Source of the DNA: Eledone cirrhosa
Taxonomy: Eukaryota
Reading direction: 5' to 3'
Assembly (NCBI GenBank): GCA_964016885.1
Contig: OZ024743.1
Location: 9,796,001-9,860,000 of the forward strand
DNA length: 64,000 bases
Both the position numbers and the translations under genes were made by a program. Positions 308-64,000 of the stretch are shown here, piece by piece (position 1 is the first letter of the stretch; each line of letters begins with the position of its first letter). The notes under the pieces were generated by a model that was given only the letters and a program-made list of their open reading frames with translations, was not told the origin of the DNA and did no database searches.

Positions 308-1875
308 TTACTGTCCTGCCACTTCGTGTGACATATGGTTGTGTGGTATGTGGTGTTTGCGGTGGAGGTGAAGGTGTTGTGTGGGAGTGTATGTGCGAGG
401 TATGTCAGGCAATGATGTGAGACTTTCAGAGAAAGCCTTCTTTGCTCTGTCAACGGATGTTACGTCTTTTCGACCATTGACAGCCACTGTAAAGTGTTTT
501 GGTGTGTGCAAAAGCACATGAAAAGGTCCATTATAAGGTGACGTAAGAGGTCTCTTGACGGAATCATTCCGTATGAAAATGTGTGTCCACGTAGAGGTGT
601 CCCATGGGACAGCAGAAGAAATAGATTGGTCACGAGGGTTCATTGGTGGAATATCCGAGAAATACGAACGAATCCTGGTGACATATGATGCTGGGTCAAG
701 ATGTGATGAATCCACTAGTGCTAACATTTGTCCAGGAAGAGACAATGTGGTACCATAAAGAAGTTCAGCAGAAGAAAAACCTAAATCTGTCTTAATGGCA
801 GAACGACAACCAAGAAGCACGATTGGCAAAAATTCGGTCCAACGTTGCGGATCAGGAGTAGCGCGAAGTGCAGCTTTCAACTGTCAATGAAACCTCTCGT
901 CCATTCCATTGGAGGCTGGATGATAGCTGGTCGTATGAATGTGATGAGCACCCAAGAGTCGTGATATTTCACGAAATAAGGAAGCTTCAAACTGGCGTCC
1001 ACGATCCGTAGTTATTTTAGTAGGAACACCGAAACGAGCAATCCAATTGGAAATGAAAGCTCGTGCAACGGACTCTGCGGTTATGTCCACGAGAGGTATG
1101 GCTTCAGGCCACCGCGAGAATACGATTGATACAAGTCAATATGTATGTGAACCCACGATTAACGGGCCATGGGCCAACAATATCCATGTGAATATGACGG
1201 AAACGTGCGTCTGGCGGGCTGAATTTCCCAAGAGGAGCGCGGACATGCCGTAAATCTTAGAGCGCTGACACTTCAAACAAGAACGTGCCCAACCGGTGAT
1301 TAAACGACGCATATTAGGCCAAAGAAATCGAGCCGTAATAAGCTTCACCGTGGTAGCTATGCCGGGATACGACAAGGATCGGGGGCAATCTGGAACAAGT
1401 GGTCTGGGTGAGCCAGTAGAAATATCGCAAAGAATTTTTCCTTCAGCAGACGGATGAGGTAAATATTCAAATTTACAGCAGGAAAACTGGGTAGAAGAAA
1501 TGTCCAACGAATTCAGAGTAGGTTGGTCAGTTGCAATGGCAACTAAATTGATATGTGCAGGAGACGCAAGAGAACACACAGAAAGTCGAGATAATGCGTC
1601 CGCTGGTATGTTGGCAGCTCCAGCTATATGACGAATGTCACTGGTGTACTGGGAGATGAAATCCAAATGTCCAGTGAAGCTGTACCAAACACACATTTAG
1701 CTGGGTTGATTCTGACCTGGTACGATTGAAGACGTTGAAATAACTGAGATAGATGTTGCTGATGATGTTCAGTTGTGTCACTGATAAACAGGAGACCATC
1801 CACGTAAGCAAACACGAAATCCAATCCACGCGTGACTTCATCGATAACACGCTGGAACGTGCTAGAGGCATTCTG
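308..1875 (-). pseudogene. Ty3/Gypsy pol remnant: RT fragment, RNase H tail, integrase; frameshifted and internally deleted
   Basis: RT NASSTFQRVIDEVTRGLDFVFAYVDG (YxDD mutated); HLDFISQYTSDIRHIAG..N..ADALSR; zinc-finger part WPNMRR..CLKCQRSK; integrase core FGVPTKITTDRGRQF, YHPASNGMDERFH; GPY/F-type PYNGPFHV. Confidence 0.93.
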
Positions 1876-2012
1876 CTCCACTAGCGATTACAGTAAAAGA
1901 CATAATCATGAACCCTCCCCAAGGCGTCTCCTACGAGTCTCTGAAGACAGAGGTACTGCGTGGGAAACGCCTTGGAGAGGGTTCGTGATTATGTCTTTTA
2001 CTGTAGTCGCTA
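1872..2012. mobile_element. Gypsy gag fragment present as an inverted duplication
   Basis: Plus strand reads SAPLAITVKDIIMNPPQGVSYESLKTEVLR; minus strand from ~2013 reads IATTVKDIITNPLQGVS; arms 1882-1931 and 1963-2012. Confidence 0.65.
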
Positions 2013-2179
2013 TATGTTCTTGAGTGACATTTATTTAAATGATCACGGAAGGATGGATATAACCAAATATTGAAAGTTTTTTTTTTGTCCGCTGTTCCAA
2101 CTATTTGAGAAGGCACCAAATACTGCCTTTCCACCAGCAGAAATTATTGATACAGTATTGATATTTAGTATTGATATTT

Positions 2180-2394
2180 AGGGCGTTGGGTTGGCAGTAT
2201 CGGTAAAGCATCGGAAAACATGCTTAGGGGAATATAGTCTGCATTCTGTGTTCAAATTGTGCCGAGGTTAGCTTTGCATTTCATCCTTACGGAGTCGATA
2301 AAATAAAGTACCAGTAATACACTGGGGTGAATTTAATCGACTTTCCACTCCAAACAAAGTTGTCGGTCTTGTGCAGAATTAAGAAACCATTATT
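2180..2394 (+). mobile_element. tRNA-derived SINE, octopod-like family
   Basis: A box TGGCAGTATCGG, B box GTTCAAAT, conserved body TTTCATCCTTACGGAGTCGATAAAATAAAGTACCAG. Confidence 0.85.
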
Positions 2395-2406
2395 TATCCA
2401 TTCAAA

Positions 2407-2622
2407 AGGGCGGTGCATTGACAAAGTCGGTGAAGAGTCGGACAACATGGTTTGTAGAATATAATTACGTCTCTTTACGTTCTGAGTTCAAATCGTGTCG
2501 GAGTTAGTTTTGCATTTTATTCTTACGGTGTCAATAAAATGTCATTAAGGCACAAGTGTCGATTTAATCGAATTACTCCTTCCCTTAAAATTGCTGGATT
2601 TGTTCCCAAAGTAGAAACAATC
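2407..2622 (+). mobile_element. Diverged SINE copy in tandem with the previous one
   Basis: GGGCGGTG head, GAGTTCAAATC B box, degenerate body, GTAGAAACAAT tail. Confidence 0.75.
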
Positions 2623-2984
2623 ATACATACGTACACATATTACATATAATCCTTACAATAATTGAAAAGAAAACATAGCATCTAAGGTACACAAATATTG
2701 AAATCTACAAGTGACAACATAAATTTATAATAACCTAAATGTTTCTTTAAATATTTCTTTAAAACGATGGAATGGTGTGGAACACGAAACAACGATTTCA
2801 TTTTCATTAATTTTTATATTGGAACATTTAAAAGATTTAACAAGCGGTGTTAAACGAAGGTATCCCCGGATGTATACAATAAGTAGGAAAGTAGAGTAAA
2901 GGGTAACTGTTGCCGGATCTAGTTAAGAGTATGGAAATAATATTTAGAATGTCAATAAAATTAGTTATAATCATAATGCTTTCT

Positions 2985-3197
2985 GATATAAGCAAAAGGC
3001 CAAGTAACTTTGGGGAAAGGGAAAGTTGATTAAATCGACTCCTCAGTACATTACTGGTACTTGATTTTATCAACCCCATAAGGATGAAAGGCAAAGCTAA
3101 CCTCGGCGGGATTTGAACTCAGAATTTAAAGGGCCATAACTCTATGCCACTAAGTATGTTGTTCGACTCTCTACCGATTTTTCCAATCCACCGCCCT
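2985..3197 (-). mobile_element. SINE, same family
   Basis: Reverse-complement body GGATGAAAGGCAAAG..GGATTTGAACTCAG..CCAATCCACCGCCCT. Confidence 0.85.
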
Positions 3198-5614
3198 GAT
3201 AGTAATAATAACAACTATAAAAATGATTACTTCTTTAATTTTCACAAAGATAGTGAATGTGAGACACTTGACAGAAACGCACAAAACATTAGGTTAATGC
3301 TTTAACATTGTGAGAAAATTAGTGTTGGAAAAGAAATAATTGTGTATTAGAAATAGGTTATTTTTAGTTCCAAATAGATCTTCTCGAGGAACCACGATAT
3401 ATCCAGGTTGCAAAAACTCTCGCAGTCTATTAGCTATATTCACATATTGAGACAGGTTTCATCCAATAAAGCTATAACTGTCATTCTCACCAGCATTTCA
3501 GTATATTTATTGGAGAATATAACTCTCGCTCTCCAATGTTTGTGGGAAGAATTAATCAATCGCCCTATTGATATTAATAAAACACCTAGCAGAGTCATAT
3601 TTGTTACGAGAATTCAGCTCACGTAACAAGGCTGTGGTTAACCTTCCCCTTTCGCCTACCATCTTTTCTGTTCTGTTGACGTAGGGCTAAACACATTTGG
3701 ACATGCTGTAGTTGAGAAAGAATTTTCTGAAGGTGTCTCTACTGTGTTTGTGCATTGGGAAAGCTTTATCCGGGGAATTACTGCTTAAAACACTATACTC
3801 GTTATGGGAGTGGGCAGTAGGATATTTCCGAAAAGTGGCAAAGATTCTCTTAAGAAAAGAACACGCCGACCGGCTGCTATTTAGTGGCGGTGAAGATTGC
3901 AATATATGTGTAATATACGAAAATATATATTGTTAAATCTACCAAATTGGGAGAAGGTAATTAATCCTTTTACAGATTTAAGAATAATCTTTGCCTGTCC
4001 TGTTGCATTGTAACTGGGTATAAATCACTTGAAACATTTCGAGTTATGATCTTTAATTATTAAAATATGAAATCTCATGCCTAAGTGTATGGTTTTGGTT
4101 ATCTGTTTATTTGCAAAGGAATTGGTAAATCTTGCAAATATGAAATTCTAGAGATATGATCAGGTGTGAAGACCGGCCTTTATTAATTTATTTTTAATCA
4201 ATTAATATAAACTGTTTCAATGATCATCTCTGATGAGATAAGGAAGAATGTCGGTTATCTTATGACGCTTGACTAGAAAAACAACAACTATAGTTCTTTC
4301 TGGTTTGTATCTTCATTAAATTCATTCTACAGTATGATAACGAAATTTGGTTGACATCTGCAAACATGATTTTCATCCTGGTATAGCGATATTTCATTTC
4401 TTTGACAAGCTTTTTTTTTTTTTTGTCTAAAAGTAAAAGTTAAAAATAAATCACACTAGTGTGATTGTGAGATTTCAATGTTGAAACTTTTATAATTTTA
4501 TGCATGAAAAAGATTCCTTTTACAGACCAAGTATTGTGAGACTCTGACAAACTGGTTGACTTGAATGTAAACATAGTTTAGTCAATCTTTGAAAATGAAA
4601 ACCAAATTTCTTTTCTCCATCAGTTAGGGCTTCGTAGATATAAACGTAACTTATTCTATGTTTTTATTTTCATGGGATTTGAAAGAGTATAATTGATACT
4701 GATATAGATACCTATTTAATCATAGCTGTTTCTGAATCCACTTCGATTTTTATAAGTTGATGTTATTTTTGTTTTTAATTTGCCTGTTTCATGTTAGATC
4801 TTCAATATTTCCATAGAACGCTTATTATGATAAGATTACAGATAGATTTGCGTGATCTAGAATTGACTCTATTGATATTGACACAGCCTGTTTATTTATT
4901 GATCTAAAATCACTGTTCATCTCAAATCATCGAAACCTACTTTCATTACAAAATATTACGAATTATTTGTTTCTCATATAAACCAGATGTTCTAAAGAGC
5001 GATTCGAATTACAGGAAATTTTTTCAGTTTAGACTACAGTTTATAGCAAATGGGAATATCAATGTCAAGAAACGATAAAATGTCAATCAATCTTCGATAA
5101 AAGAAAGGATGTAATTCAAGACTGATTATTCTAGAAATACAAAATATTACTTTAAAAAGAAATGTTCTCTTCATTTATATTTTAGAAATCCAGGCGGGCT
5201 ACGAAATTCATATTTTTATTTGGATTATTTTTAGGGAGGTGGTGGAATATAAATTACCGGAGGTGAATTCAACGAAATAGATCATTTGTGTATTAAATGA
5301 AAATGGTTTCGAAATAAATCTATTCTATTTTTGGCAGCAATATATTTTCTGAAAATTTATAAAACATTCAAATTTATACATACTTGAGAAGTGTTTTCAA
5401 AGGGAGTATCGTTTCTCCTTGTGGGGATTTAATTGTTTAAAGGAATAATAAGTAATTATCAATCAATAATTTACAACTTAGCTGACATTCATTTTCATGG
5501 CAATACGCTAAGCAATAATGATATATGGAATTCAGATCGTTTGACAAATTTGTTACTTGTTATAGTTGTTGTGCTTATATCTAGGTTAGCCATGATTGGG
5601 CATGCTTATAATTA

Positions 5615-21000: not shown

Positions 21001-22027
21001 ATTATTATTGATATCTACCTTATCAATTTCTTCAATTGAGAACATTTTCGTATGTATTAAGTTCTGTAATATCTGTGCCAGGTTTACAAAGTCGTATATA
21101 AAACACTTCTAGCTATATTTGCATCCATCTAATTATATATTAAATTCTAAACGTCAATTTCCTTAGTGGGGATTCAGGACTACCAATGGCCGTGCTTCTC
21201 CTTATCAAATTATTGATTCAGGTAACAGTTTTCGTGAGATAAAAGTAATTTAAATAAGGTAAAAGCAATTTCGTAAAGCTGAATACATATGCTAGGAATT
21301 TATATTCCTTTATTTCATGAGATTGCGGCAAAATGTAATAACAATTATATGAAGGTTCCTTTACTAGATTTCCCATGTGTTTTAATGTAGCATGGAATGT
21401 CAATGTGACTGAATAAATGCCAAGGAGTGGTGTTACAGCAATCATCCAGAGCATCTTACCAAGACGAACAATTTTAATGGAACTCTAGTCTTATTACTGA
21501 CAATCAAACCAACTGATATTGCATCGAGGAAATTCTTTTTAACATCTGTCAGGATTTACTTTTAGACTTTTCTTTAGAATAATACTTTTCTGTAGTCCAG
21601 CATCCTTCTTCTGTCTTTACTTTAATCCATCTAATGGGTAATAATTCATAAATGTAGCAGGTATTTTAGTAAGATTCCAATCATATTTCGAAAATGGTCT
21701 GATCCACTTTGAATTACTCTTATATATTACTTCCACAGAACGATTATGTAGCTACTCCAATGTAGTATGGTATTGATTGCTAATGAACCACCACTCTCCA
21801 GATAATATTTAACGCTTCCTTGTCCCGAACAACACTCCCACCTAATAATATATCACTTAGTATATGACTTCCCAAATTACATTAAAATATATAGGTGTAA
21901 TTCTAAAATGATGCATAGTGCTGTATAAACACAAACACATATATGCATGTATCTATCTATCTATCTATCTTCTGTATACATTTACACACACTCAAACATA
22001 CACACACACGCATATATATATATATAT

Positions 22028-23787
22028 TACGTCGGACAGACTGGACGTCGCCTGGCGGACCGTTTCACCGAACACCTCCGGGATATTCGTCTTGGCGGGA
22101 GTTCCCCCATCGCCCGCCACTTTGGCTCCCCTGGACATTTCACGAACCACCTCACAGTCTGGCCTACTCCAATGCCACGGAACACCTGCCACCCTCCTCA
22201 GGGTCGAACAACACACCATGTTCACCCTACATACCCACACTCCCCCCGGCCTGAACTCCCCAACCCTATTCCTTTAGCCTTCGACTGTCCTGTTACCCCC
22301 CACCCCCACACACACATATCCCCCACTAACACACTCCTCCTGTTCACCCACAACTAACAATACTAACACCCCCACCTCACTCCGACCACCCTCCCCCAAC
22401 TAACAATACTAACAGACTTTCCCCCCTCCCCTATCACGCACACACACCGGTACATATATACACGCACTCACACTATTCACACACCCTACTACCACCACTA
22501 ACCCTCACCCACACATCCACTCGCACCACCCCACAACTAATACCACTAACATCCCCGACCCCACGCACACGAACACACACACCCATCCACACCCACTTAC
22601 ACCACTCTACACACCCTACCACCACTGACCCCCACTAACACACCCACATTCAACCCTTTCCCCACCACCAGTATACTAACACCCACTAACACCCTCTTCA
22701 CCCAAACACACTCATCCAAACACGCACGCACACACCAGTACACTACACTCCCTCCACGTCCCCCACACCTTTCTCTCCCTCTCCCCGCTCCACCCACACC
22801 CCTTCACACACACACACATATCCCACTAACACCTCTACTAATACACACCCTCCCCCCGCAAGACCCTCCCCACTCCACCTTTCACAACTACCCATCCTCT
22901 CCCCTGTCCACCGCACCTCCGCACACACTGACACACTGACTTCTCCACCTGCCATTCTCCTCTACTGCTGCTATGCCTTGACCCTCTGACCACCTCTCCG
23001 CACACACAGACACACAGCCCTCTCCACCTGTCGTTCTCCTCTACCCTCCTCCTGCCTTGACCCTCTGACCACTTCCTGTTGCACACGCACCCCCACATCT
23101 CCCCTTTTCCGACCAACCCAACCACGGATTACACACATTGGACATCGCTCCCACCAATCAACTCCATCTCAAGGAAAATATCCGGCAGCTCACCACATCC
23201 TCAACGGAACTACCTTAGGAACTTACCCACGGACATACACTCACAAAATTTTTTTTCCCACACGCCACCTACATCCACAATACGTATAAACACCACACAC
23301 ACGTGCGTACCCCCACATATTTACACACTCAGTCTCCGGAAACCTCTCCCCCCCCTGACCCCTCCCTATCCACATGCGCACACACACACCCATTTACACC
23401 CCACCCCACACACACACGTACATCTACACACACACACCACCTTCAGCCCTCCCCGCTCGGACACCCTGCCTCCCTCCCTCCACTCCACCCGCCACCACCC
23501 CTACACGCCCACATTCTTCCACCACTTGTTTATCTTCATGTTTATTTTTATTTTTATTATTTTTTAATATTTATTTTCATTTGTTCCACCGTTTCCTTCC
23601 TCCCTTTTTTTCTAAATGTCTCTCCCCCACTCCCCTACATACCATTGGAACTCTCTTCCCACACACTTTTCGCCTGAAGAAGGGCTAATGCCCGAACCCC
23701 CCCCCCCCCCCACACTCTCAAGAGCGTGAAACGAATAAACCTTTATTCGTACTGCCTCTCTGTTTATTTCCCGTTCCATTTTTCACT
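22028..23787 (+). mobile_element. 5'-truncated Penelope-like element: GIY-YIG tail, long C/A-rich 3' region, pLTR
   Basis: YVGQTGRRLADRFTEHLRDIRLGGSSPIARHF..H; after a frameshift EQHTMFTLHTHTPPGLN; CTGAAGAAGGGCTAATGCCCGAA at 23674; AATAAA; bounded by (TA)n. Confidence 0.85.
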
Positions 23788-31869: not shown

Positions 31870-32336
31870 CAATGGCTTGAATTTCACCTATGATGCAAAC
31901 CATCTCTTCTATGTATTTTGTAGACGTGTTTTTACATTTTCCCTTTGTGCACCTTAAGACATATTCGACATTTCTTGTTTTACGCTTTGTTAATGGTGTT
32001 GGCATCTATATAATTTCTATCCTGATAAGGGCCTTTATGGGAAATCCTGGCTTTTCTACTATCTAAACTTTTAATTTTAATTTATTTAAAACACTAGTTC
32101 GGTTCTGGGGGTAGCACCAACAAACATCAACCTCAGAAACAAATAGTTCAGAAAATGTTTAGTGGAAAGATACAAACAGCACAGGTTAAAGGAAACAGGA
32201 ACATATATGGAGTTGCATAACTGCTGTCGATTAGCCAACATATCGATAAAATCTTAATCTACATTGCCCATTGAAACGATCGTAGAACGATGGAGTAATT
32301 AAGTACTAAATCTTCTTGTCTTATTTGTTTTCATTC

Positions 32337-32534
32337 GGTGGATTGGCAGTATCGGTAGAGGGTTGGACGCCATGCTTTCCAGCATAGTTACGTCCCTTTA
32401 CGATCTGAGTTCAAATCCCGCCGAGGTTGACTTTGCCTTTCATCCTTACGGGGTCGATAAAATAAAGTACCAGTAATGCACTGGGTATTTGCTGGCCTTG
32501 TGCCTAAAGTAGAAACAATTATTGAAATATATAT
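32337..32534 (+). mobile_element. SINE, tRNA-headed family
   Basis: Near-identical to the 6414 copy. Confidence 0.9.
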
Positions 32535-33593
32535 ACCAGATAGAAAAATGCGTACAGCAAAAAAAAGTAATATTGTTGGAATATAAACCTTTAAAAATAC
32601 AGGACAAGAAACTAAAATAAAACTTTAAAAGAATAGGACAAGAAACTAAGATAAAACTTTAAAAGAATAGGACAAGAAATAAAAAATTTTACAATAATAT
32701 TAGTGGCAAAATTGTTATTGGTAAAAAATCGAGTTCCACATTCATAGGCTCTGGGTTCCACATTCAGAGGTCGTCGTCAGACCGGGGGATCATTTGATCC
32801 TGGTTTGAACACCAATTGGGCCATAACCATACCCCTATTTCATCATTCGGCGACACGCCTCATGTGTCATGCATAATGTGAATGGACCCATGGGCCCATG
32901 AGCACAGATCTTGAGCAGCAGCGGACGGTCTTGTCGTCCCGCTCATCCTTGATCTTGACCAACCCGTCCATCTTCTCCTTGCATCTTGTCCTTGAGTTCA
33001 AGTCCGGCAATCCAGATGAATGCGTGCCACAGCTTTCTGGTACAGGAAGGGGGAGCAGGAGGACTGGAGGGATGACGGGACAGAGGGAGGGAGGACCGGT
33101 GATTGAGTGAGGTGCCGTAGTCGGTGGTCAGAGTCGACATCTTGTCCCGGTCGTCTTCTCCATCTTCGTCTGGTGTTGCGGGACCAGAAGTGCATTCTTG
33201 GAGGACACCTGCAGCTGCATCGGCCAATTCTTCTTGCAATGGTCATTCTGACGGAGCAGAACTGCTCAGCCAACCAACCCCAACCAGAACCAACCGCTCA
33301 GGGGCAACGCACAATTAGAGCATGACAATTATTATGCACTAATCAAGAAGATACTGGGGCATAGCACAGGAAACGAATAAAAAAATTTTGCCACTAATAT
33401 TATTGTAAAATTTTTTATTTCTTGTCCAATTCTTTAAAGTTTTATCTTAGTTTCTTGTCCTATTCTTTTAAAGTTTTATCTTAGTTTCTTGTCCTATTCT
33501 TTTAAAGTTTTATTTTAGTTTCTTGTCCTGTATTTTTAAAGGTTTATATTCCAACAATATTACTTTTTTTCTGTACGCATTTTTCTATCTGGT
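32535..33593. repeat. Long inverted repeat (arms ~180 and ~210 bp with 33-bp subrepeats) around a GC-rich insert
   Basis: 32535-32713 vs 33385-33593; subunit AGGACAAGAAACTAAGATAAAACTTTAAAAGAAT, one more copy in the right arm. Confidence 0.9.
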
Positions 33594-33866
33594 CTACTAT
33601 TTTTTAAGGCAATGCAAGCAACAACTATCTAATAATTAAATGATCATAGTGAATTACTGACAAGTGATTGACATTTTAAAGTTCTTTTGAGTATAATTGC
33701 AATCTAGTTGAGGCAACTGGCTTAATGACAAAGCTAGTAAATCATGAATGCATTTGAGATGATTAGTGCATAATAGTGAATTGGTGAAACTTGTGCATTT
33801 CAATGGTGTTACAACAATAGATGTAAGTTATATAGTAGTAATACTTTATCATTTTAACTTTTTAGA

Positions 33867-34226
33867 ATGGACAAAAGCCCATGCAAAGAAATGACTTTGA
33901 CTGCAGTGATTCTCTCCAATTTACTTACAAAGCAAAACGTGGTCAAATACCTTATCATCTCTGATAAAATGCCCATTGAATCACTGAAAATCGGATGCAT
34001 GGAATTCCTCATAAAATGCACCTATGAATCGGAAGCCATCCCATATATCAATGGATATAGGGAGTCGTTCACACTGGAAGACCATCGCTTCATTTGTGAC
34101 TTCATCAGTTATCTCCACGATTATCTCAGACACCCAATGCCATTGATGAGAGGTGATCCAATGTGTGAGCATGTAACTAATCTTATAGAAGTTGTTACCG
34201 ACCACCTGGCTTTTAGTGACATTTGA
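33867..34226 (+). CDS. 119-aa protein with a BACK/SPOP C-terminal-like motif
   Basis: Intact ORF; LxxxNVxxYLIISDxxxxxxLKxxCMEFL resembles the post-BTB BACK helices; preceded by a possible 43-nt intron (GTAAGT at 33823, TTTTAG ending 33865). Confidence 0.5.
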   Translation: MDKSPCKEMTLTAVILSNLLTKQNVVKYLIISDKMPIESLKIGCMEFLIKCTYESEAIPYINGYRESFTLEDHRFICDFISYLHDYLRHPMPLMRGDPMCEHVTNLIEVVTDHLAFSDI

Positions 34227-34406
34227 CTGATTTGACTGATAATGATGTATTTTTAAAAAGTATGTGTACATTCTTGTTACTATTTTAAGGCAATGCAAGC
34301 AACACCTATTTAATAAAATTTAAATTTAAAAATGACCATTGTGCATTACTAGTATGATGACATTTTATTAAGTCACAAAATTAGTCAGTCAGCCATAGAG
34401 CAAGGA

Positions 34407-35062
34407 TCATGTGGCAAAAATTTGTGTCAATTTAAGATTTCCAACATTGTTCAAATGAATCATATCTGGGTTGAAGTCAGATTTGTCAAATTTTGACCAA
34501 TTTTCAATGTTGTGAAGATTGGGCAAGTTCAATTTCTGAATCATTTCTTTCATGCAGTAATTAAACTTTTCCAAACGAGAATTTCTCTTGCCCAAGTCAT
34601 TTTTATCTTCAATTACACTTTGTGGACGTGGAATGACACCACTGTAGAAAATGGGTGTACAGTGGTGCTTTTCTGCTATTTTCGCCTTGCAAAGAAACTC
34701 TTCCCCTGTTTTTCCGGTTTTGTGCCTCGAATGGGCACTTTGTCCTTAATTTACAAATAAATGATTAATAAAAAATACTTGGGCAAAAAGTATTGTATTA
34801 CTTTGCACAGCTTTGTAGTGCCAACGGTGCGACGAGGATTCAGATCATTAGAGCCGACATGAACCACCAATACTTTCACAAAAGGACAACAGATAACAAT
34901 ATTGGCGATTAACATTACCTGGCCCTGACGGGCCCCAGGTATACAAAATATCTAAGTATTTTTGTTGGTATGATAAGTAAATACATTTGAATTAATATTT
35001 TTATACCTTCTGGTCATTCGATTTCGCCACATTTCTAATTATGGATTTGTAAAAACTTGCAT
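34407..35062 (-). pseudogene. Three-exon SGNH/GDSL esterase gene, with one clear and one probable 1-nt frameshift
   Basis: Exon 1 35062-35007 (..SIIRNV); intron 35006-34952; exon 2 34951-34802 (IPGA, VVHVGSND); intron 34801-34745; exon 3 34744-34407 (FYSGVIPR, DMIHLNNVG). All four SGNH blocks in order, GT-AG phase-0 introns. Confidence 0.8.
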
Positions 35063-35233
35063 GAATGTGAATTTGATCAGTCCAATTGCCCGATTTTAGT
35101 GAAAAGTTTTGATTCGAAATGGAAATACTCCATTTCCGTGCCATGGAAAAAATGAATAAGCCGATCAAAAAGCCGCGAAACATCATTTTTAATTAAGCGA
35201 AATTAGTGGATGCAAATCTCAGAAAATATTGTA

Positions 35234-35305
35234 CACTATTCGCACCTATCGCACTATTCGCACCTATCGGTACAAAAATATAGCGCACTATTCGCACCTA
35301 TCGGT
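35234..35305. repeat. CACTATTCGCACCTATCG, three copies
   Basis: Directly visible. Confidence 0.85.
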
Positions 35306-35758
35306 ACAAAAAATCGCACGACTGTTAATAATACTAGAAGTGCAAACTATCTGTTGAATACCTGGTATATGAAGAGCAACCGATATGATCGGTCGGCGAT
35401 CGGTCTTGAAGAAGAATGAAGAATGAAGTGAAATTTTGGTCTGGTTTTTGTCATCGGTGTTTCGCAGAGATGCCGGCACGAACAAAGGTGTCAGTGCCAC
35501 AAAGTTGTCCGCTTGAACAAAGGTGTCGGTCCGACAAAGGTGTCAGTCAGACAGACAGTCAGACAGTGTCACAGTCGGTGCGACAAAGCGATCGATGCGA
35601 TTAAAAAAAATTTAACTCACATGTTTACCTATATTTTCGCAAACTATTGATAGATTGGTACAAAAAATAGCTTTGATAATAAACATAAATTTTTAACGAA
35701 GTATTTAAAAAGCATTTTAGCAGTGAAAAGTGAAGTAATATTTCACACTGACGCAAGT

Positions 35759-35888
35759 AGGGCCGTTCAGAAATGACGTAGTCAATTAGGAGGAGGGGAT
35801 TCGGCGATTTGACTACATTTGACTAACGTAATCACAATCACAAGAGTTCCGCCGAAAAAAATTCGTCATTTCTGGATTACCTCCCCTA
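35759..35888. mobile_element. Short MITE, possibly PIF/Harbinger-like
   Basis: Imperfect TIRs AGGGCCGTTCAGAAATGACG and CGTCATTTCTGGATTACCT. Confidence 0.5.
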
Positions 35889-36141
35889 GCGTCACGCTTA
35901 GTACTCACTCACTTGAACACAAGATTTATCAGCAAACTTTGATTATAAACTTTTTCCCGCTGGACCAAATTTCTAGATTTTTAAGCCAAAAGATGCGTAA
36001 TGATCTACTGTTCATGCTCATATAAGTTTTATCTCAGTTAAATAAAGTAGAGCCGCGCTGTACTGTCGTAAACAGACGATTGCCAACGAAAACATGACCA
36101 CAACAATATTACTAAACGGACTACCGTCCGTTTAGTATATA

Positions 36142-36480
36142 CTGGCCTTGTGCCTAACGTAGAAACCATTATTGAAATATATATATAATAAAAAGTTTTT
36201 TTATATTTTATAAATAAAATAAAGTACCAGTAATACACTGGGTAATTTGCTGGCCTTGTGCCAAAAGTAGAAACAATTATTAGGGCGGTGAATTGGCAGT
36301 ATCGATAGATGGTTGGATGCTATGCTTTCCAGCACAGTTACGTCCCTTTACGGCCTGAGTTCAAATCCCGTCGAAGTTAACTTTGCCTTTCATCCTTACG
36401 GGGTCGATAAAATAAAGTACCAGTAATGTACTGGGTAATTGCTGGCCTTGTGCCAAAAGTAGAAACAATTATTGAAATAT
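36142..36480 (+). mobile_element. Two SINE 3' tails followed by a full SINE (36282-36480)
   Basis: CTGGCCTTGTGCC..TAGAAAC occurs three times. Confidence 0.85.
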
Positions 36481-56353: not shown

Positions 56354-56536
56354 TAAACGGAATAGAAAATGCTGACAAATTGTTCACAGTTGAAAAATGG
56401 TTTAATTAGGAATAAAAGAGTACCCAGGACCTTAGACACCCTAAAGTAAATCAACCGAAACTAAACGCTCTTCCATACATCTCCACACAACCCCCTCAAC
56501 AATGACGCCGTTGACACCATCCTCCAGAACATCCCT

Positions 56537-57079
56537 GTGTTGAAAAAGGACCATAGAATGAACCAAATCCTACGAACACACGATATCATAAAGAGCAAAA
56601 GACAATCTAAGTCAATGAAAAACATCCTAACACATGCCAAAGTACTGCCAACCACAACAACGAAACCCACAGTAAAAAAATGCGATAGACCCAACTGTGG
56701 CATTTGCATCAACCTAATAGAGGGTTCGGAATTCTATTTCAAAGAAGGACAACGTTTTATAGTAAAACACAATTTCACATGTGCATCGGAAAATCTAATA
56801 TATGTATTAACTTGCTCAGGTTGTCGAGAACAATACATAGGCCAGACCAAAAACAGCCTCCGCCAACGCATGACTGTCCATAGATCCCACATTAAAATAC
56901 GTGAATACAGGAAAATACCACTGAGTGAACACACTGATACCTGTGCCGCCCAAAATCATCCCAGCTTCAGAATCTTTCCCCTCTACAAATTTAAAGATAA
57001 TGCCACCCACACCCAGCGCATCAGCAAGGAATCTTACTTCATTAACAAATACGGACCCCGTCTAAACACTTCTCCCTAA
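56537..57079 (+). CDS. GIY-YIG endonuclease domain (C-terminus of a truncated PLE ORF)
   Basis: Cys linker CDRPNCGIC; NLIYVLTCSGCREQYIGQT..LRQRMTVH..H..R..KESYFI..PRLN. Confidence 0.9.
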   Translation: MLKKDHRMNQILRTHDIIKSKRQSKSMKNILTHAKVLPTTTTKPTVKKCDRPNCGICINLIEGSEFYFKEGQRFIVKHNFTCASENLIYVLTCSGCREQYIGQTKNSLRQRMTVHRSHIKIREYRKIPLSEHTDTCAAQNHPSFRIFPLYKFKDNATHTQRISKESYFINKYGPRLNTSP

Positions 57080-62499: not shown

Positions 62500-63099
62500 T
62501 TAAGGAAAGTGAAGAATAAGAATTGATGGAGGATAAGTATCTGAAAGTGAGTTAAGTTTATATGAGCTGGAAAGCAAGTGTGATTTCATGTGTGGGCAAC
62601 TGGTGAAAATTTCTGTTTTTGTATTTAGGCAGGTTTTTGGTGATTTAAGGTTCTGTAAAATCCAATATTTTTCACTTATGCAGAGTGTGCATCTTCTTGT
62701 TCCTCTTGCATATTCTTTAGATTGGTTCAAAATTGACCAATCCAATTTATATTGGATACCTTGGTCTTTCAAATCCCATATTCTGCTAGCCAGAGCTGTT
62801 GTGAATTTCTTTTCCGGGTGCCGGAAAGATGCGACATGTGAGTAATAACGCGTTTTGAATTTGTCTTGTGTCATACCCACATATCGTTCGCTGGGAGCTG
62901 GTTGGTTCTTGCTGCTGGTTGTCACTTTAGCCACATTTACAATGGCTTTGGTGTTGCATTTACCTTGTAATGGGCATTCACTTTTGACTCTACAGGAGCA
63001 ATTTTGATGTTCTCTGGGTGATTTCTTATTGATGATATAAGATTTAATAGGGGGACCGCAGGAGTAGCTAATTTTGACACAGTTTCTATTGAAGATCAT
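62500..63099 (-). CDS. PLE linker and GIY-YIG-type endonuclease, open part of a disrupted ORF
   Basis: 199-aa ORF with CSCRVKSECPLQGKC, YVGMT, CTLC..EK and LN..TEI..CPH. Confidence 0.8.
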   Translation of the reverse strand: MIFNRNCVKISYSCGPPIKSYIINKKSPREHQNCSCRVKSECPLQGKCNTKAIVNVAKVTTSSKNQPAPSERYVGMTQDKFKTRYYSHVASFRHPEKKFTTALASRIWDLKDQGIQYKLDWSILNQSKEYARGTRRCTLCISEKYWILQNLKSPKTCLNTKTEIFTSCPHMKSHLLSSSYKLNSLSDTYPPSILILHFP

Positions 63100-64000
63100 A
63101 TAGTATCTATGTGTTCTAGGGAAATGTTTATCTAAGAGCTCTAGGAATTTTTTTGCCTACATTAGTTTTATCTGCTAGAAAGTAGGGGGGGTGAACCAGA
63201 TTATTTTTCTTTTCCTATTATTATGTTTAAAAGAGTTAGTATTGTTGGGTATGTACTTAATCGGTTAGCTAAATCCGCTATTTTGAAGGGCTTTATTATA
63301 GTAGGGGGATGCCTTATTGAAAATAGCTTATGAGGAAGAGAGGGTGTAGATCCTACGGCTAATATTAGGGATAAGGTTTTTAGAAACTATAGGAGGATGG
63401 CAAGAGCCTTTATTTATATATTTTAAATTTTCATTAGGTTTATGGTACGGTTTATAAGAAGCAGTAGGCAGATCTAGGTTTATATCTAGAAAATTAACAT
63501 TGGAAAGGTTAGTGTCAATAGTAAGTTTAAGATTAAAACTAGCGAAGTTTTTTTATTAAGTCTTTCCTTAATCTATCTAAGTTATGGCCTATGGTGGTAT
63601 TGGAATATAAAGCCCAAAAATATGGTTAGGGAATTTTTCTTTAAGTGTGTGTAGGAGGAATAGGCCGACTAAATCACAAACATCAGCACTGTCAAAAGAA
63701 CCCCTTGAGACATCGAATGGGTTCTCTGGGTTAGATATTTTTACCCAAGTGTCATTATCAGTAAAGAGTAGAGTGTTTCTAGCATGCAAGATGACATTCT
63801 CTTCAATATCAGAAATATTGGTAAACTTTCTAGCGAAATGTAAGGCTTTCGCTAAAAAAGTCTGAGTGATAGACGGGTAGAAATCTACAATGTCAAATTG
63901 GGTGAATCTAGAACTATTTTTATCTTTAATATTATTAAACCAATGTACTACGGAAGAGCTATTTATCCATTGGAGTAATGCAGACTTACTTCTAATCTGT

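What the first reader, a model, noticed from the sequence alone, without database searches (positions are those of the whole stretch)
34407..35062. Hidden spliced SGNH/GDSL esterase gene missed by the ORF track
Seen: removing two GT-AG phase-0 introns (55 and 57 nt) gives a ~180-aa protein with block I (..SIIRNV), block II (IPGA), block III (VVHVGSND), SGVIPR and block V (DMIHLN..G). Exon 3 needs one extra base, plausibly in the A run at ~34710. Exon 1 either needs one extra base (MQVFTxSII) or continues the 35186 ORF frame. Known: this esterase type occurs intronless in ORF1 of CR1/L2/RTEX LINEs. Inference: an intron-bearing stand-alone copy implies capture by a DNA-based element or domestication, and the indels could be assembly errors.
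Basis: partly seen in the sequence, partly recalled or inferred. Interest (0 to 1): 0.75.

Follow-up and report, generated by a model that had tools for sequence, protein, structure and literature searches.

The report
Truncated esterase gene inside Helitron copy
The spliced esterase-like reading frame is real, but it is a broken copy of the cut-off back half of a two-enzyme gene carried by a rolling-circle jumping gene (Helitron), present here in a shortened Helitron with at least 88 copies, so it is likely not a working host gene.

Summary
The three-exon frame with 55- and 57-nt GT-AG introns is at the stated coordinates. It lies in a 3.6-kb repeat (window 32536-36137, minus strand) with Helitron hallmarks: 5'-TC, 3'-CTGG, insertion between A and T, no target duplication. 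In 39 copies examined, 26 keep an open 227-codon spliced frame. The window copy is broken by a 4-bp and a 12-bp deletion.

The product resembles transposon-type SGNH esterases only below curated cut-offs. Pfam's two best hits are GDSL families (E 0.004-0.03). The only solved-structure hit for exon 2 is the zebrafish L2 ORF1 esterase.

The frame is not a whole gene. Rarer long copies (one of 12.6 kb) share both ends and encode Rep, helicase and a UCH protease domain, then a five-exon NADAR-SGNH gene of 335 codons with a canonical GDS motif. The 3.6-kb family arose by a single ~9-kb internal deletion joining the Helitron's 5' leader to the codon after GDS. The first 47 codons of "exon 1" are leader sequence.

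The junction occurs at 88 places in the genome, the parental GDS version at 6. No RNA data were available. A Helitron-carried SGNH gene is already known from fish (texim).

The parts
32536..36137 (-). One copy (3602 bp) of a non-autonomous Helitron family. It is a deletion derivative of a ~12.6-kb RepHel-bearing Helitron.
   Evidence: Both ends were found in 27 copies. The 5' flank ends in A in 26 of 27. The 3' flank begins with T in 26 of 27 (L024 reads CTGT|A). No target duplication was seen. The family starts with TC; this copy reads TA.
36112..36137 (-). 5' terminus with a hairpin of 10-bp stem, starting 2 nt from the end.
   Evidence: measured on copy L013: -7.0 kcal/mol, z -3.4, 1 of 200 shuffles folds as well. 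The same 26-nt motif stands at the 5' end of long copies C2, C28 and C4.
35042..36111 (-). Leader segment. It corresponds to the first ~1.1 kb of the long (RepHel-bearing) Helitron, upstream of its RepHel frame.
   Evidence: positions 1-1109 of the short reference match C2 and C28 at 93-98% identity.
35041..35042 (-). Junction of the ~9-kb internal deletion (leader ...ACAAATCCA | TAATTAGAAATG... esterase exon).
   Evidence: three-way comparison. The exact 31-mer across the junction is found at 88 places in the genome.
35007..35186 (-). 'Exon 1' of the chimeric frame. Codons 1-47 (35186-35046) are leader sequence. The Ser codon at 35045-35043 lies at the junction. The rest (IIRNVAKSNDQK) is the tail of the parental NADAR/SGNH exon.
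34952..35006 (-). Intron 1: 55 nt, GT..AG, phase 0.
34802..34951 (-). Exon 2, holding blocks II and III (FCIPGAR, VVHVGSND).
   Evidence: 4c1b_A is the only solved-structure hit; it aligns to G165, H191 and N195 of that chain.
34745..34801 (-). Intron 2: 57 nt, GT..AG, phase 0, with two in-frame TAA codons.
34407..34744 (-). Exon 3 (SGVIPR, DMIHLN, stop TGA). In this copy it is broken by a 4-bp deletion at 34684/34683 and shortened by a 12-bp deletion at 34421/34420.
   Evidence: PF14606 E 0.0038 on an intact sibling copy.
34364..34369 (-). AATAAA, about 40 nt after the stop codon. It could serve as a polyadenylation signal; this is inferred.
   Evidence: Read from the sequence. Not tested.
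33858..34226 (+). Antisense 122-codon open frame with BTB-like features. It is possibly a captured gene fragment; this is a lead only.
   Evidence: One search, run on the sibling frame in L013: best Atlas scores 0.91. Pfam finds nothing.
33381..33596 (.). Inner arm of a ~190-215-nt inverted repeat with 34-bp tandem sub-repeats.
   Evidence: (arms 98% complementary in L013).
32536..32716 (.). Terminal arm of the same inverted repeat. It ends in the 3' terminus ...GCTGTACGCATTTTTCTATCTGG.

Best explanation
Window 32536-36137 (minus strand) is a decayed copy of a non-autonomous Helitron whose spliced 227-codon frame is the 5'-truncated esterase half of a Helitron-borne NADAR-SGNH gene, and this copy likely makes no working enzyme.

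Shown:
- The long relatives have the same 5' end motif and the same 3' 2.6 kb.
- They encode Rep, PIF1 helicase and a UCH domain, followed on the same strand by a five-exon gene. In that gene a NADAR domain runs straight into an SGNH esterase with a canonical IVGDSIIRNV block I.
- The short family differs by a single ~9-kb internal deletion that joins the 5' leader to the codon after GDS.
- The identical junction is found at 88 places.

Inferred:
- The shortened element was copied in trans by a RepHel-bearing relative, by rolling-circle transposition as DNA. That would explain why the introns persist.
- The upstream ATG and 47 leader codons are in frame by accident.
- The truncated protein lacks the first strand and the Gly-Asp of block I.

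The window copy has in addition a frameshifting 4-bp deletion.
For: Repeat family:
- 40 of 40 scored matches have 96-100% identity, out of 352 first-look candidates.
- In the 1.7 kb around the gene, 38 of 39 copies differ from the majority by 0.2-1.5%.

Helitron ends, in 27 copies with both ends:
- They start with TC and end with CTGG.
- The 5' flank is A in 26 of 27 and the 3' flank is T in 26 of 27.
- No duplicated flank was seen.

Genome context: the Helitron Rep family PF14214 has 3704 first-look candidates, and all 150 scored have E between 1e-60 and 3e-54.

Long partner:
- The 5' motif and 3' end are found in C28, 12.6 kb apart.
- Short reference 1-1109 matches the long leader and 1095-3665 matches the long 3' part.
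- Pfam on the C12 copy gives Rep 4e-23, PIF1 4e-26 and UCH 8e-13.

Parent gene:
- The NADAR profile is covered colinearly by three exons: positions 4-67, 82-115 and 118-162, with E 0.0018, 0.017 and 0.13.
- Exon C ends in ...KYIVGDSIIRNVAKSNDQK.
- The spliced 335-codon frame is open in 1 of the 3 long copies in which all five exons were located (C2). In the fourth, C12, exon D was not found.

Junction. The short junction is at 88 places and the parental version at 6.

SGNH likeness:
- PF14606 E 0.0038.
- PF14606 E 0.0099 and PF13472 E 0.03 on the exon 2-3 read-through.
- 4c1b_A aligns G165, H191, N195, D279 and H282 (residue roles from passages of PMC3905857).
- BLASTP to an ORF1-like esterase of the same genome gives E 0.009 and 0.005.
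- The protein-atlas neighbours are GDSL clusters at 0.89-0.92.

Neutral decay of copies: 26 of 39 frames are open. Differences at codon positions 1, 2 and 3 are 0.51, 0.51 and 0.65%.
Against: - All SGNH matches are below Pfam's curated cut-offs (16.6-18 bits against 27; 15.3 against 32.9).
- phmmer of exon 3 against 1.84 billion representative proteins found 0 hits at E up to 0.001.
- The canonical Helitron 3' hairpin is not there. Only a 3-bp stem lies 13 nt from the end (z -1.0).
- The element instead has a 5' hairpin and subterminal inverted repeats, traits described for Helitron2 and Helentron-type elements (passages of PMC3627910 and PMC4067079).
- RepHel is frameshifted in all 3 long copies examined, so no intact mobilising copy was shown.
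- Three other RepHel loci share nothing with the element.
- No empty site was examined.
- The 39 copies are the best-scoring ones, not a random sample.
- The chimeric frame keeps a Ser codon at the block I position and a beta-prone stretch before it, so residual activity is not excluded.
Confidence: 0.85

Rival explanations
1. The region is a stand-alone, intron-bearing esterase gene: a host gene or a domesticated transposon gene that the ORF track missed and that only sequencing errors break.
For: The frame has an ATG, two clean GT-AG introns, a stop codon and an AATAAA. It is open in 26 of 39 copies.
Against: - The frame lies inside a repeat with defined Helitron ends.
- Its junction occurs at 88 places.
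- Its first 47 codons are the Helitron's leader.
- Copies decay without a codon-position bias.
Confidence: 0.03
2. The chimeric 227-codon frame of the short family is itself expressed, from the leader that normally precedes RepHel. It would give a shortened esterase-like protein with some function of its own, for the element or for the host.
For: - The frame is open in 26 of 39 copies.
- The Ser, Gly, Asn, Asp and His positions are all occupied.
- The leader may carry the promoter of RepHel (inferred from its position).
- The N-terminus is hydrophobic.
Against: - Openness is what a family with under 1.5% divergence would show anyway.
- The first strand and the Gly-Asp of block I are replaced by unrelated sequence.
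- The fold prediction was uninformative.
Confidence: 0.1
3. The region is a remnant of a LINE or Penelope-like retroelement ORF1 (coiled coil plus esterase) rather than part of a Helitron.
For: - The closest solved relative is a LINE ORF1 esterase.
- The His next to block III, described as transposon-specific in passages of PMC3905857, is present.
- Frames with motifs that I recall as GIY-YIG stand elsewhere in the window (not tested).
Against: - There is no reverse transcriptase or coiled coil next to it.
- Introns are kept in 39 of 39 copies.
- The ends and insertion sites are Helitron-like.
- The full-length relatives encode Rep and helicase.
Confidence: 0.02

Closest known systems
texim genes of fish: SGNH hydrolase genes associated with Helitrons (Tomaszkiewicz et al. 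2014, PMC4021074; abstract and part 1 of 2 of Results read)
   Same: - An intron-bearing SGNH esterase gene sits beside or inside a Helitron and is multiplied with it.
- The protein is related to CR1-type retrotransposon esterases.
- The open question is the same: helper of transposition or passenger.
   Different: - texim genes have up to 15 exons and a few copies per genome, and no NADAR domain is reported in the parts read.
- Here the esterase is fused to a NADAR domain in a 5-exon gene.
- Here the host is an invertebrate-like animal genome, possibly a cephalopod (a lead only).
- The abundant form here is a truncated remnant in a deletion derivative.
- No sequence comparison with texim proteins was made.
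Esterase domain of LINE ORF1 proteins (ZfL2-1 ORF1p, PDB 4c1b; Schneider et al. 2013, PMC3905857; passages read)
   Same: - Blocks II, III and V align to G165, N195, D279 and H282, and to the transposon-specific H191.
- The parental block I reads GDSII, like the S143-I144 of ZfL2-1.
   Different: - There is no coiled coil and no reverse transcriptase.
- It has introns.
- It is preceded by NADAR instead.
- Similarity is weak (E 0.35-0.44 against the solved-structure library).
Canonical Helitrons and their non-autonomous deletion derivatives (features as summarised in PMC4067079 and PMC3627910; passages read)
   Same: - 5'-TC and 3'-CTRR ends, insertion between A and T, no target duplication.
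- A RepHel-bearing long form and an internally deleted short form share both ends.
   Different: - No 16-20-nt 3' hairpin.
- A 10-bp-stem hairpin 2 nt from the 5' end and 13-nt subterminal inverted repeats, as described for Helitron2 and Helentron-type elements.
- A UCH domain follows the helicase.
NADAR domains in transposable elements (Gypsy of Ectocarpus, ORF1 of Tx1 LINEs of the Pacific oyster; PMC12477816, passages read)
   Same: A NADAR domain is carried as an accessory module by a mobile element, including in a mollusc.
   Different: Those are retrotransposons. Here NADAR is fused to an SGNH esterase in a separate gene of a Helitron.

Membership tests
SGNH/GDSL hydrolase superfamily | Block I: strand followed by G-D-S with the nucleophile Ser | tested here: not met
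   The short family and the window copy read ...HASFYKSIIRNV. The strand and Gly-Asp are leader sequence, and the Ser codon lies at the deletion junction. The parental long copies read KYIVGDSIIRNV.
SGNH/GDSL hydrolase superfamily | Block II Gly, block III GxND Asn and block V DxxH, in this order | tested here: met
   HMMER aligns them to G165, N195, D279 and H282 of 4c1b_A. BLASTP to P0001 gives the same colinear order.
SGNH/GDSL hydrolase superfamily | Score over the curated cut-off of a Pfam GDSL family | tested here: not met
   PF14606 scores 18 and 16.6 bits against a cut-off of 27. PF13472 scores 15.3 against 32.9. On the read-through these are the two best-ranked of 24736 models, but both are sub-threshold. 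Exon 1 could not be included.
SGNH/GDSL hydrolase superfamily | Flavodoxin-like three-layer fold | tested here: inconclusive
   AlphaFold2 on exon 2-(intron read as X)-exon 3 with 3 further rows gave mean pLDDT 39.6. No fold search was run on it.
Transposon-type esterases (Schneider et al. 2013) | His four residues before the block III Asn (H191), and the Ser of the later strand (S228) | tested here: inconclusive
   The H191 equivalent is present and aligned. The S228 equivalent is only suggested by SGVIPR aligning with SSILPR of P0001. It was not aligned to 4c1b.
Canonical Helitron (Helitron1) | 5'-TC and 3'-CTRR ends, insertion between A and T, no target-site duplication | tested here: met
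   From 27 copies with both ends. The window copy itself begins TA instead of TC. No empty site was examined.
Canonical Helitron (Helitron1) | 16-20-nt palindrome about 11 nt from the 3' end | tested here: not met
   Only a 3-bp stem lies 13 nt from the end (-2.7 kcal/mol, z -1.0).
Canonical Helitron (Helitron1) | A related element with the same ends that encodes Rep and helicase | tested here: met
   The C28 long copy has the same 5' motif and 3' end. Shared sequence is shown. Rep, PIF1 and UCH were found by Pfam on the C12 copy. The frames are broken in the 3 copies examined.
Helitron2 / Helentron | 5' hairpin at the terminus, short asymmetric terminal or subterminal inverted repeats, T-rich target, and (for Helentron) an endonuclease domain | tested here: inconclusive
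   - The 5' hairpin is met.
- The 13-nt inverted repeat is subterminal at both ends, 26-38 nt from the 5' end and 31-43 nt from the 3' end. This fits only partly.
- Flanks are A and T, not TT.
- Pfam found no endonuclease domain.
NADAR domain (PF08719), parent gene only | Match to the whole profile | tested here: met
   Three exons cover profile positions 4-67, 82-115 and 118-162, at 19, 15.8 and 13 bits. Each is below the 35.1-bit cut-off on its own. Only the rough sum exceeds it. This domain is absent from the window copy.
texim | Grouping with Texim proteins in a tree of SGNH domains | not tested
   No Texim sequence was fetched. The likeness is in arrangement only.

The most novel reading that the evidence does not exclude
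A Helitron lineage of this genome carries its own enzyme kit. A ubiquitin-hydrolase domain follows RepHel, and there is a separate spliced gene fusing a NADAR ADP-ribose-removing domain to a transposon-type SGNH esterase. The element would use this kit to undo host modifications during rolling-circle transposition. The truncated esterase frame that spread to at least 88 places with the shortened element could still be expressed from the RepHel leader and act on the same pathway.
Probability: 0.15. Interest if true: 0.7.

Novelty: new variant of a known kind. Interest (0 to 1): 0.4.

Why it matters
It shows how an apparently complete, intron-bearing small gene can be an artefact of transposon history. 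An internal deletion put a leader ATG in frame with the back part of a real gene, and rolling-circle copying then spread it widely. Gene finders and readers would be misled in the same way at every copy.

The parent arrangement (RepHel-UCH plus NADAR-SGNH) adds an invertebrate case to the fish texim-Helitron association. It sharpens an open question: do transposon-type esterases help transposition or merely ride along?

Tried and rejected
- **RNA evidence:** no RNA holder was listed. The four runs laid are contigs that keep both introns and show no joints, so splicing is untested.
- **Structure:** AlphaFold2 on the exon 2-intron 2(X)-exon 3 read-through with 3 further rows gave mean pLDDT 39.6. 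It was not used for a fold search.
- **Homologues of exon 3:** 0 of 49 word-sharing candidates among longer proteins scored. There were 0 hits among 1.84 billion representatives.
- **Pfam on the window's own three pieces:** nothing at E up to 10.
- **PF14606 over the whole genome:** no match. PF13472 found a single ORF1-like frame on C18, which is single-copy by the protein search.
- **Solved-structure search with exon 1:** no SGNH hit. This is now explained by its leader origin.
- **Three other RepHel loci and 20 Rep loci:** no similarity to the element. They belong to other Helitron families, one of which ends in ...CCGCTAG|TATATA.
- **Selection test on copies:** the gene region looks less variable than its flanks (0.55% against 1.1-1.2%). 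I reject this as evidence, because the copies were picked by their match to that very region.
- **TIR-transposon reading:** I considered and dropped the idea that the 3' 1.1 kb with 192-nt inverted arms is a nested TIR element. The inner arm has no matching flanks, and the arms are also present in the long copies.
- **No intron 1 of a length divisible by 3** was found in 39 copies, so no natural read-through of the whole frame could be made.

Full report
**1. The observation**

- An ATG stands at 35186.
- Exon 1 is 180 nt and ends at 35007.
- A 55-nt GT..AG intron follows (35006-34952).
- Exon 2 is 150 nt (34951-34802).
- A 57-nt GT..AG intron follows (34801-34745).
- The last exon runs to the TGA at 34409-34407.

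Both introns are phase 0 and are closed by in-frame stops.

The frame shift in the last exon is real. Aligned with nine other copies, the window lacks TACA between 34684 and 34683, and twelve bases at 34421/34420.

**2. It is a repeat**

A 901-base query gave 352 first-look candidates in the 3.0-Gb genome. All 40 scored matches had 96-100% identity. Similarity to other copies runs from about window 32527 to 36141.

I fetched 38 further copies.
- All 39 have the same exon and intron lengths, within 1 nt for exon 1 and with one 58-nt intron 1.
- 26 of 39 have an open spliced frame of 227 codons.
- 13 are broken or have a shifted stop.
- 6 have a mutated splice dinucleotide.

In the 1.7 kb around the gene, copies differ from the majority base by 0.2-1.5% (38 of 39; one by 7%). 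Differences fall evenly on codon positions: 0.51, 0.51 and 0.65%. This is neutral decay of a young family. The copies are the best-scoring ones, not a random sample.

**3. The carrier is a Helitron**

In 27 copies where both ends were found (5 of 32 searched lacked one end), the pattern is consistent.
- The element begins TCCTAAACGG and ends TCTATCTGG.
- The base before it is A in 26 of 27.
- The base after it is T in 26 of 27.
- The flanks show no duplication.

These are the ends and target of canonical Helitrons, as summarised in passages of PMC4067079.

Two features depart from the canon.
- The 3' end has only a 3-bp stem (z -1.0).
- A 10-bp-stem hairpin lies 2 nt from the 5' end (z -3.4). 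It is followed by a 13-nt motif that recurs inverted 31-43 nt from the 3' end.

Passages of PMC3627910 describe a 5' hairpin and asymmetric inverted repeats for Helitron2.

The genome is rich in Helitrons. PF14214 has 3704 candidates, and all 150 scored have E between 1e-60 and 3e-54.

**4. The esterase likeness**

- The window's own pieces hit nothing in Pfam.
- The intact last exon of a sibling gives PF14606 at E 0.0038, covering profile positions 78-176 of 178.
- Exon 2, intron 2 (stops as X) and exon 3 read in one frame give PF14606 at E 0.0099 and PF13472 at E 0.03.
- All of these are below the curated cut-offs.
- Among 177,635 solved-chain sequences, the only hit of exon 2 is 4c1b_A (E 0.35). 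This is the esterase of the zebrafish ZfL2-1 ORF1 protein (PMC3905857, passages).
- The alignment puts the Gly, His, Asn, Asp and His of the window family on G165, H191, N195, D279 and H282. H191 is one of two positions that the paper calls transposon-specific.
- BLASTP to a 466-codon ORF1-like frame of the same genome (PF13472 E 1.8e-8) gives E 0.009 and 0.005 in colinear order.
- The protein atlas places exon 3 next to GDSL clusters at 0.89-0.92.

Against this, phmmer of exon 3 over 1.84 billion representatives found nothing, and a fold prediction failed (pLDDT 39.6).

**5. The frame is a truncated remnant**

I tested this.
- The only genome match to PF08719 lies directly upstream of the same esterase exons.
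- There, the exon that ends in SIIRNVAKSNDQK begins with the end of a NADAR domain and reads ...KYIVGDSIIRNV, a canonical block I.
- Three exons cover the NADAR profile colinearly: 4-67, 82-115 and 118-162.
- The spliced five-exon frame has 335 codons. It is open in 1 of the 3 long copies in which all five exons were located (C2). In the fourth, C12, exon D was not found.

The long copies carry Rep, PIF1 helicase and a UCH domain upstream on the same strand. All are frameshifted in the three copies looked at.

The C28 copy has the same 26-nt 5' motif and the same 3' end as the short family, 12.6 kb apart. Positions 1-1109 of the short reference match the long element's leader at 93-98%. Positions 1095-3665 match its last 2.6 kb at 94-99%.

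The three-way comparison shows the junction ...ACAAATCCA|TAATTAGAAATG.... This is window 35042/35041. Three things follow.
- The first 47 codons of "exon 1" are leader.
- The Ser codon stands at the junction.
- The first strand and Gly-Asp of the esterase are gone.

The 31-mer across the junction occurs at 88 places, and the parental GDS 33-mer at 6. So one deletion event was followed by amplification.

**6. How it works**

Shown: the anatomy above.

Inferred:
- The short element has no transposase and was copied in trans by a RepHel-bearing relative.
- Copying as DNA explains why the introns persist.
- The open frame is an accident of the deletion, kept open only by youth.
- The window copy is dead twice over.

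**7. What is known**

A Helitron-associated SGNH gene is in print for fish (texim, PMC4021074). NADAR domains are reported in retrotransposons, including oyster LINEs (PMC12477816).

I found no paper joining NADAR, SGNH and Helitron. The searches were made, limited to the held library, and only the first of the ten listed papers was checked.

**8. Verdict**

The "hidden gene" is a truncated, multiplied remnant. It is of moderate interest, mainly for the parent gene.

Noticed in passing
L088:6068-7591 (long Helitron copy on C12): The helicase end of RepHel runs into a ubiquitin C-terminal hydrolase domain (PF00443, E 7.9e-13). One database relative of another RepHel also carries PF00443 (P0112).
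   Followed up: partly
window 33858-34226 (+); L013:2494-2955 (-): An antisense open frame inside the Helitron has BTB-like features in the protein atlas (best 0.91). It has no Pfam hit. It is possibly a captured gene fragment.
   Followed up: partly
window 32336-32523 and 36282-36473: The Helitron copy sits in an array of a ~190-bp repeat, next to a (TA)n run. The last 35 nt of the unit stand on both sides of the insertion. This mimics a long target duplication that other copies do not have.
   Followed up: partly
L019:1417-2814 (-), G000 C18: A 466-codon frame with a coiled-coil-like part and a GDSL_2 esterase (PF13472, E 1.8e-8) looks like a LINE ORF1. It is single-copy by the protein search. 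A 96%-identical short stretch is in a protein of Argonauta hians.
   Followed up: partly
G000 C4:29782660-29787650 (loci L092/L095): This is an intermediate derivative. It has the Helitron 5' end, about 0.75 kb of leader, then the whole NADAR-SGNH gene and the 3' end, but no RepHel. Its gene is frameshifted.
   Followed up: partly
L075:1875-2050: The third intron of the NADAR-SGNH gene holds a palindromic, MITE-like insert rich in AAAAACCG/CGGTTTTT repeats.
   Followed up: no
L075:1440-1530: The 91 nt around the start of the NADAR exon recur at 99-100% identity at 33 or more other places that lack the rest of the gene. This is probably another deletion derivative family.
   Followed up: no
L047, 5' flank: One copy has a 25-nt duplicate of the 5' hairpin region directly in front of its 5' end.
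   Followed up: no
window 308-1696, 21929-22357, 56465-57079, 62500-63156: These are open frames that look like a retroelement integrase and like GIY-YIG endonucleases of Penelope-like elements. I judged this by motifs I recall. They were not searched.
   Followed up: no
run X5 (organism B): Contigs of a second organism label hold parts of the gene region at 95-99% likeness. So the element, or a close relative, is not confined to one species label.
   Followed up: no
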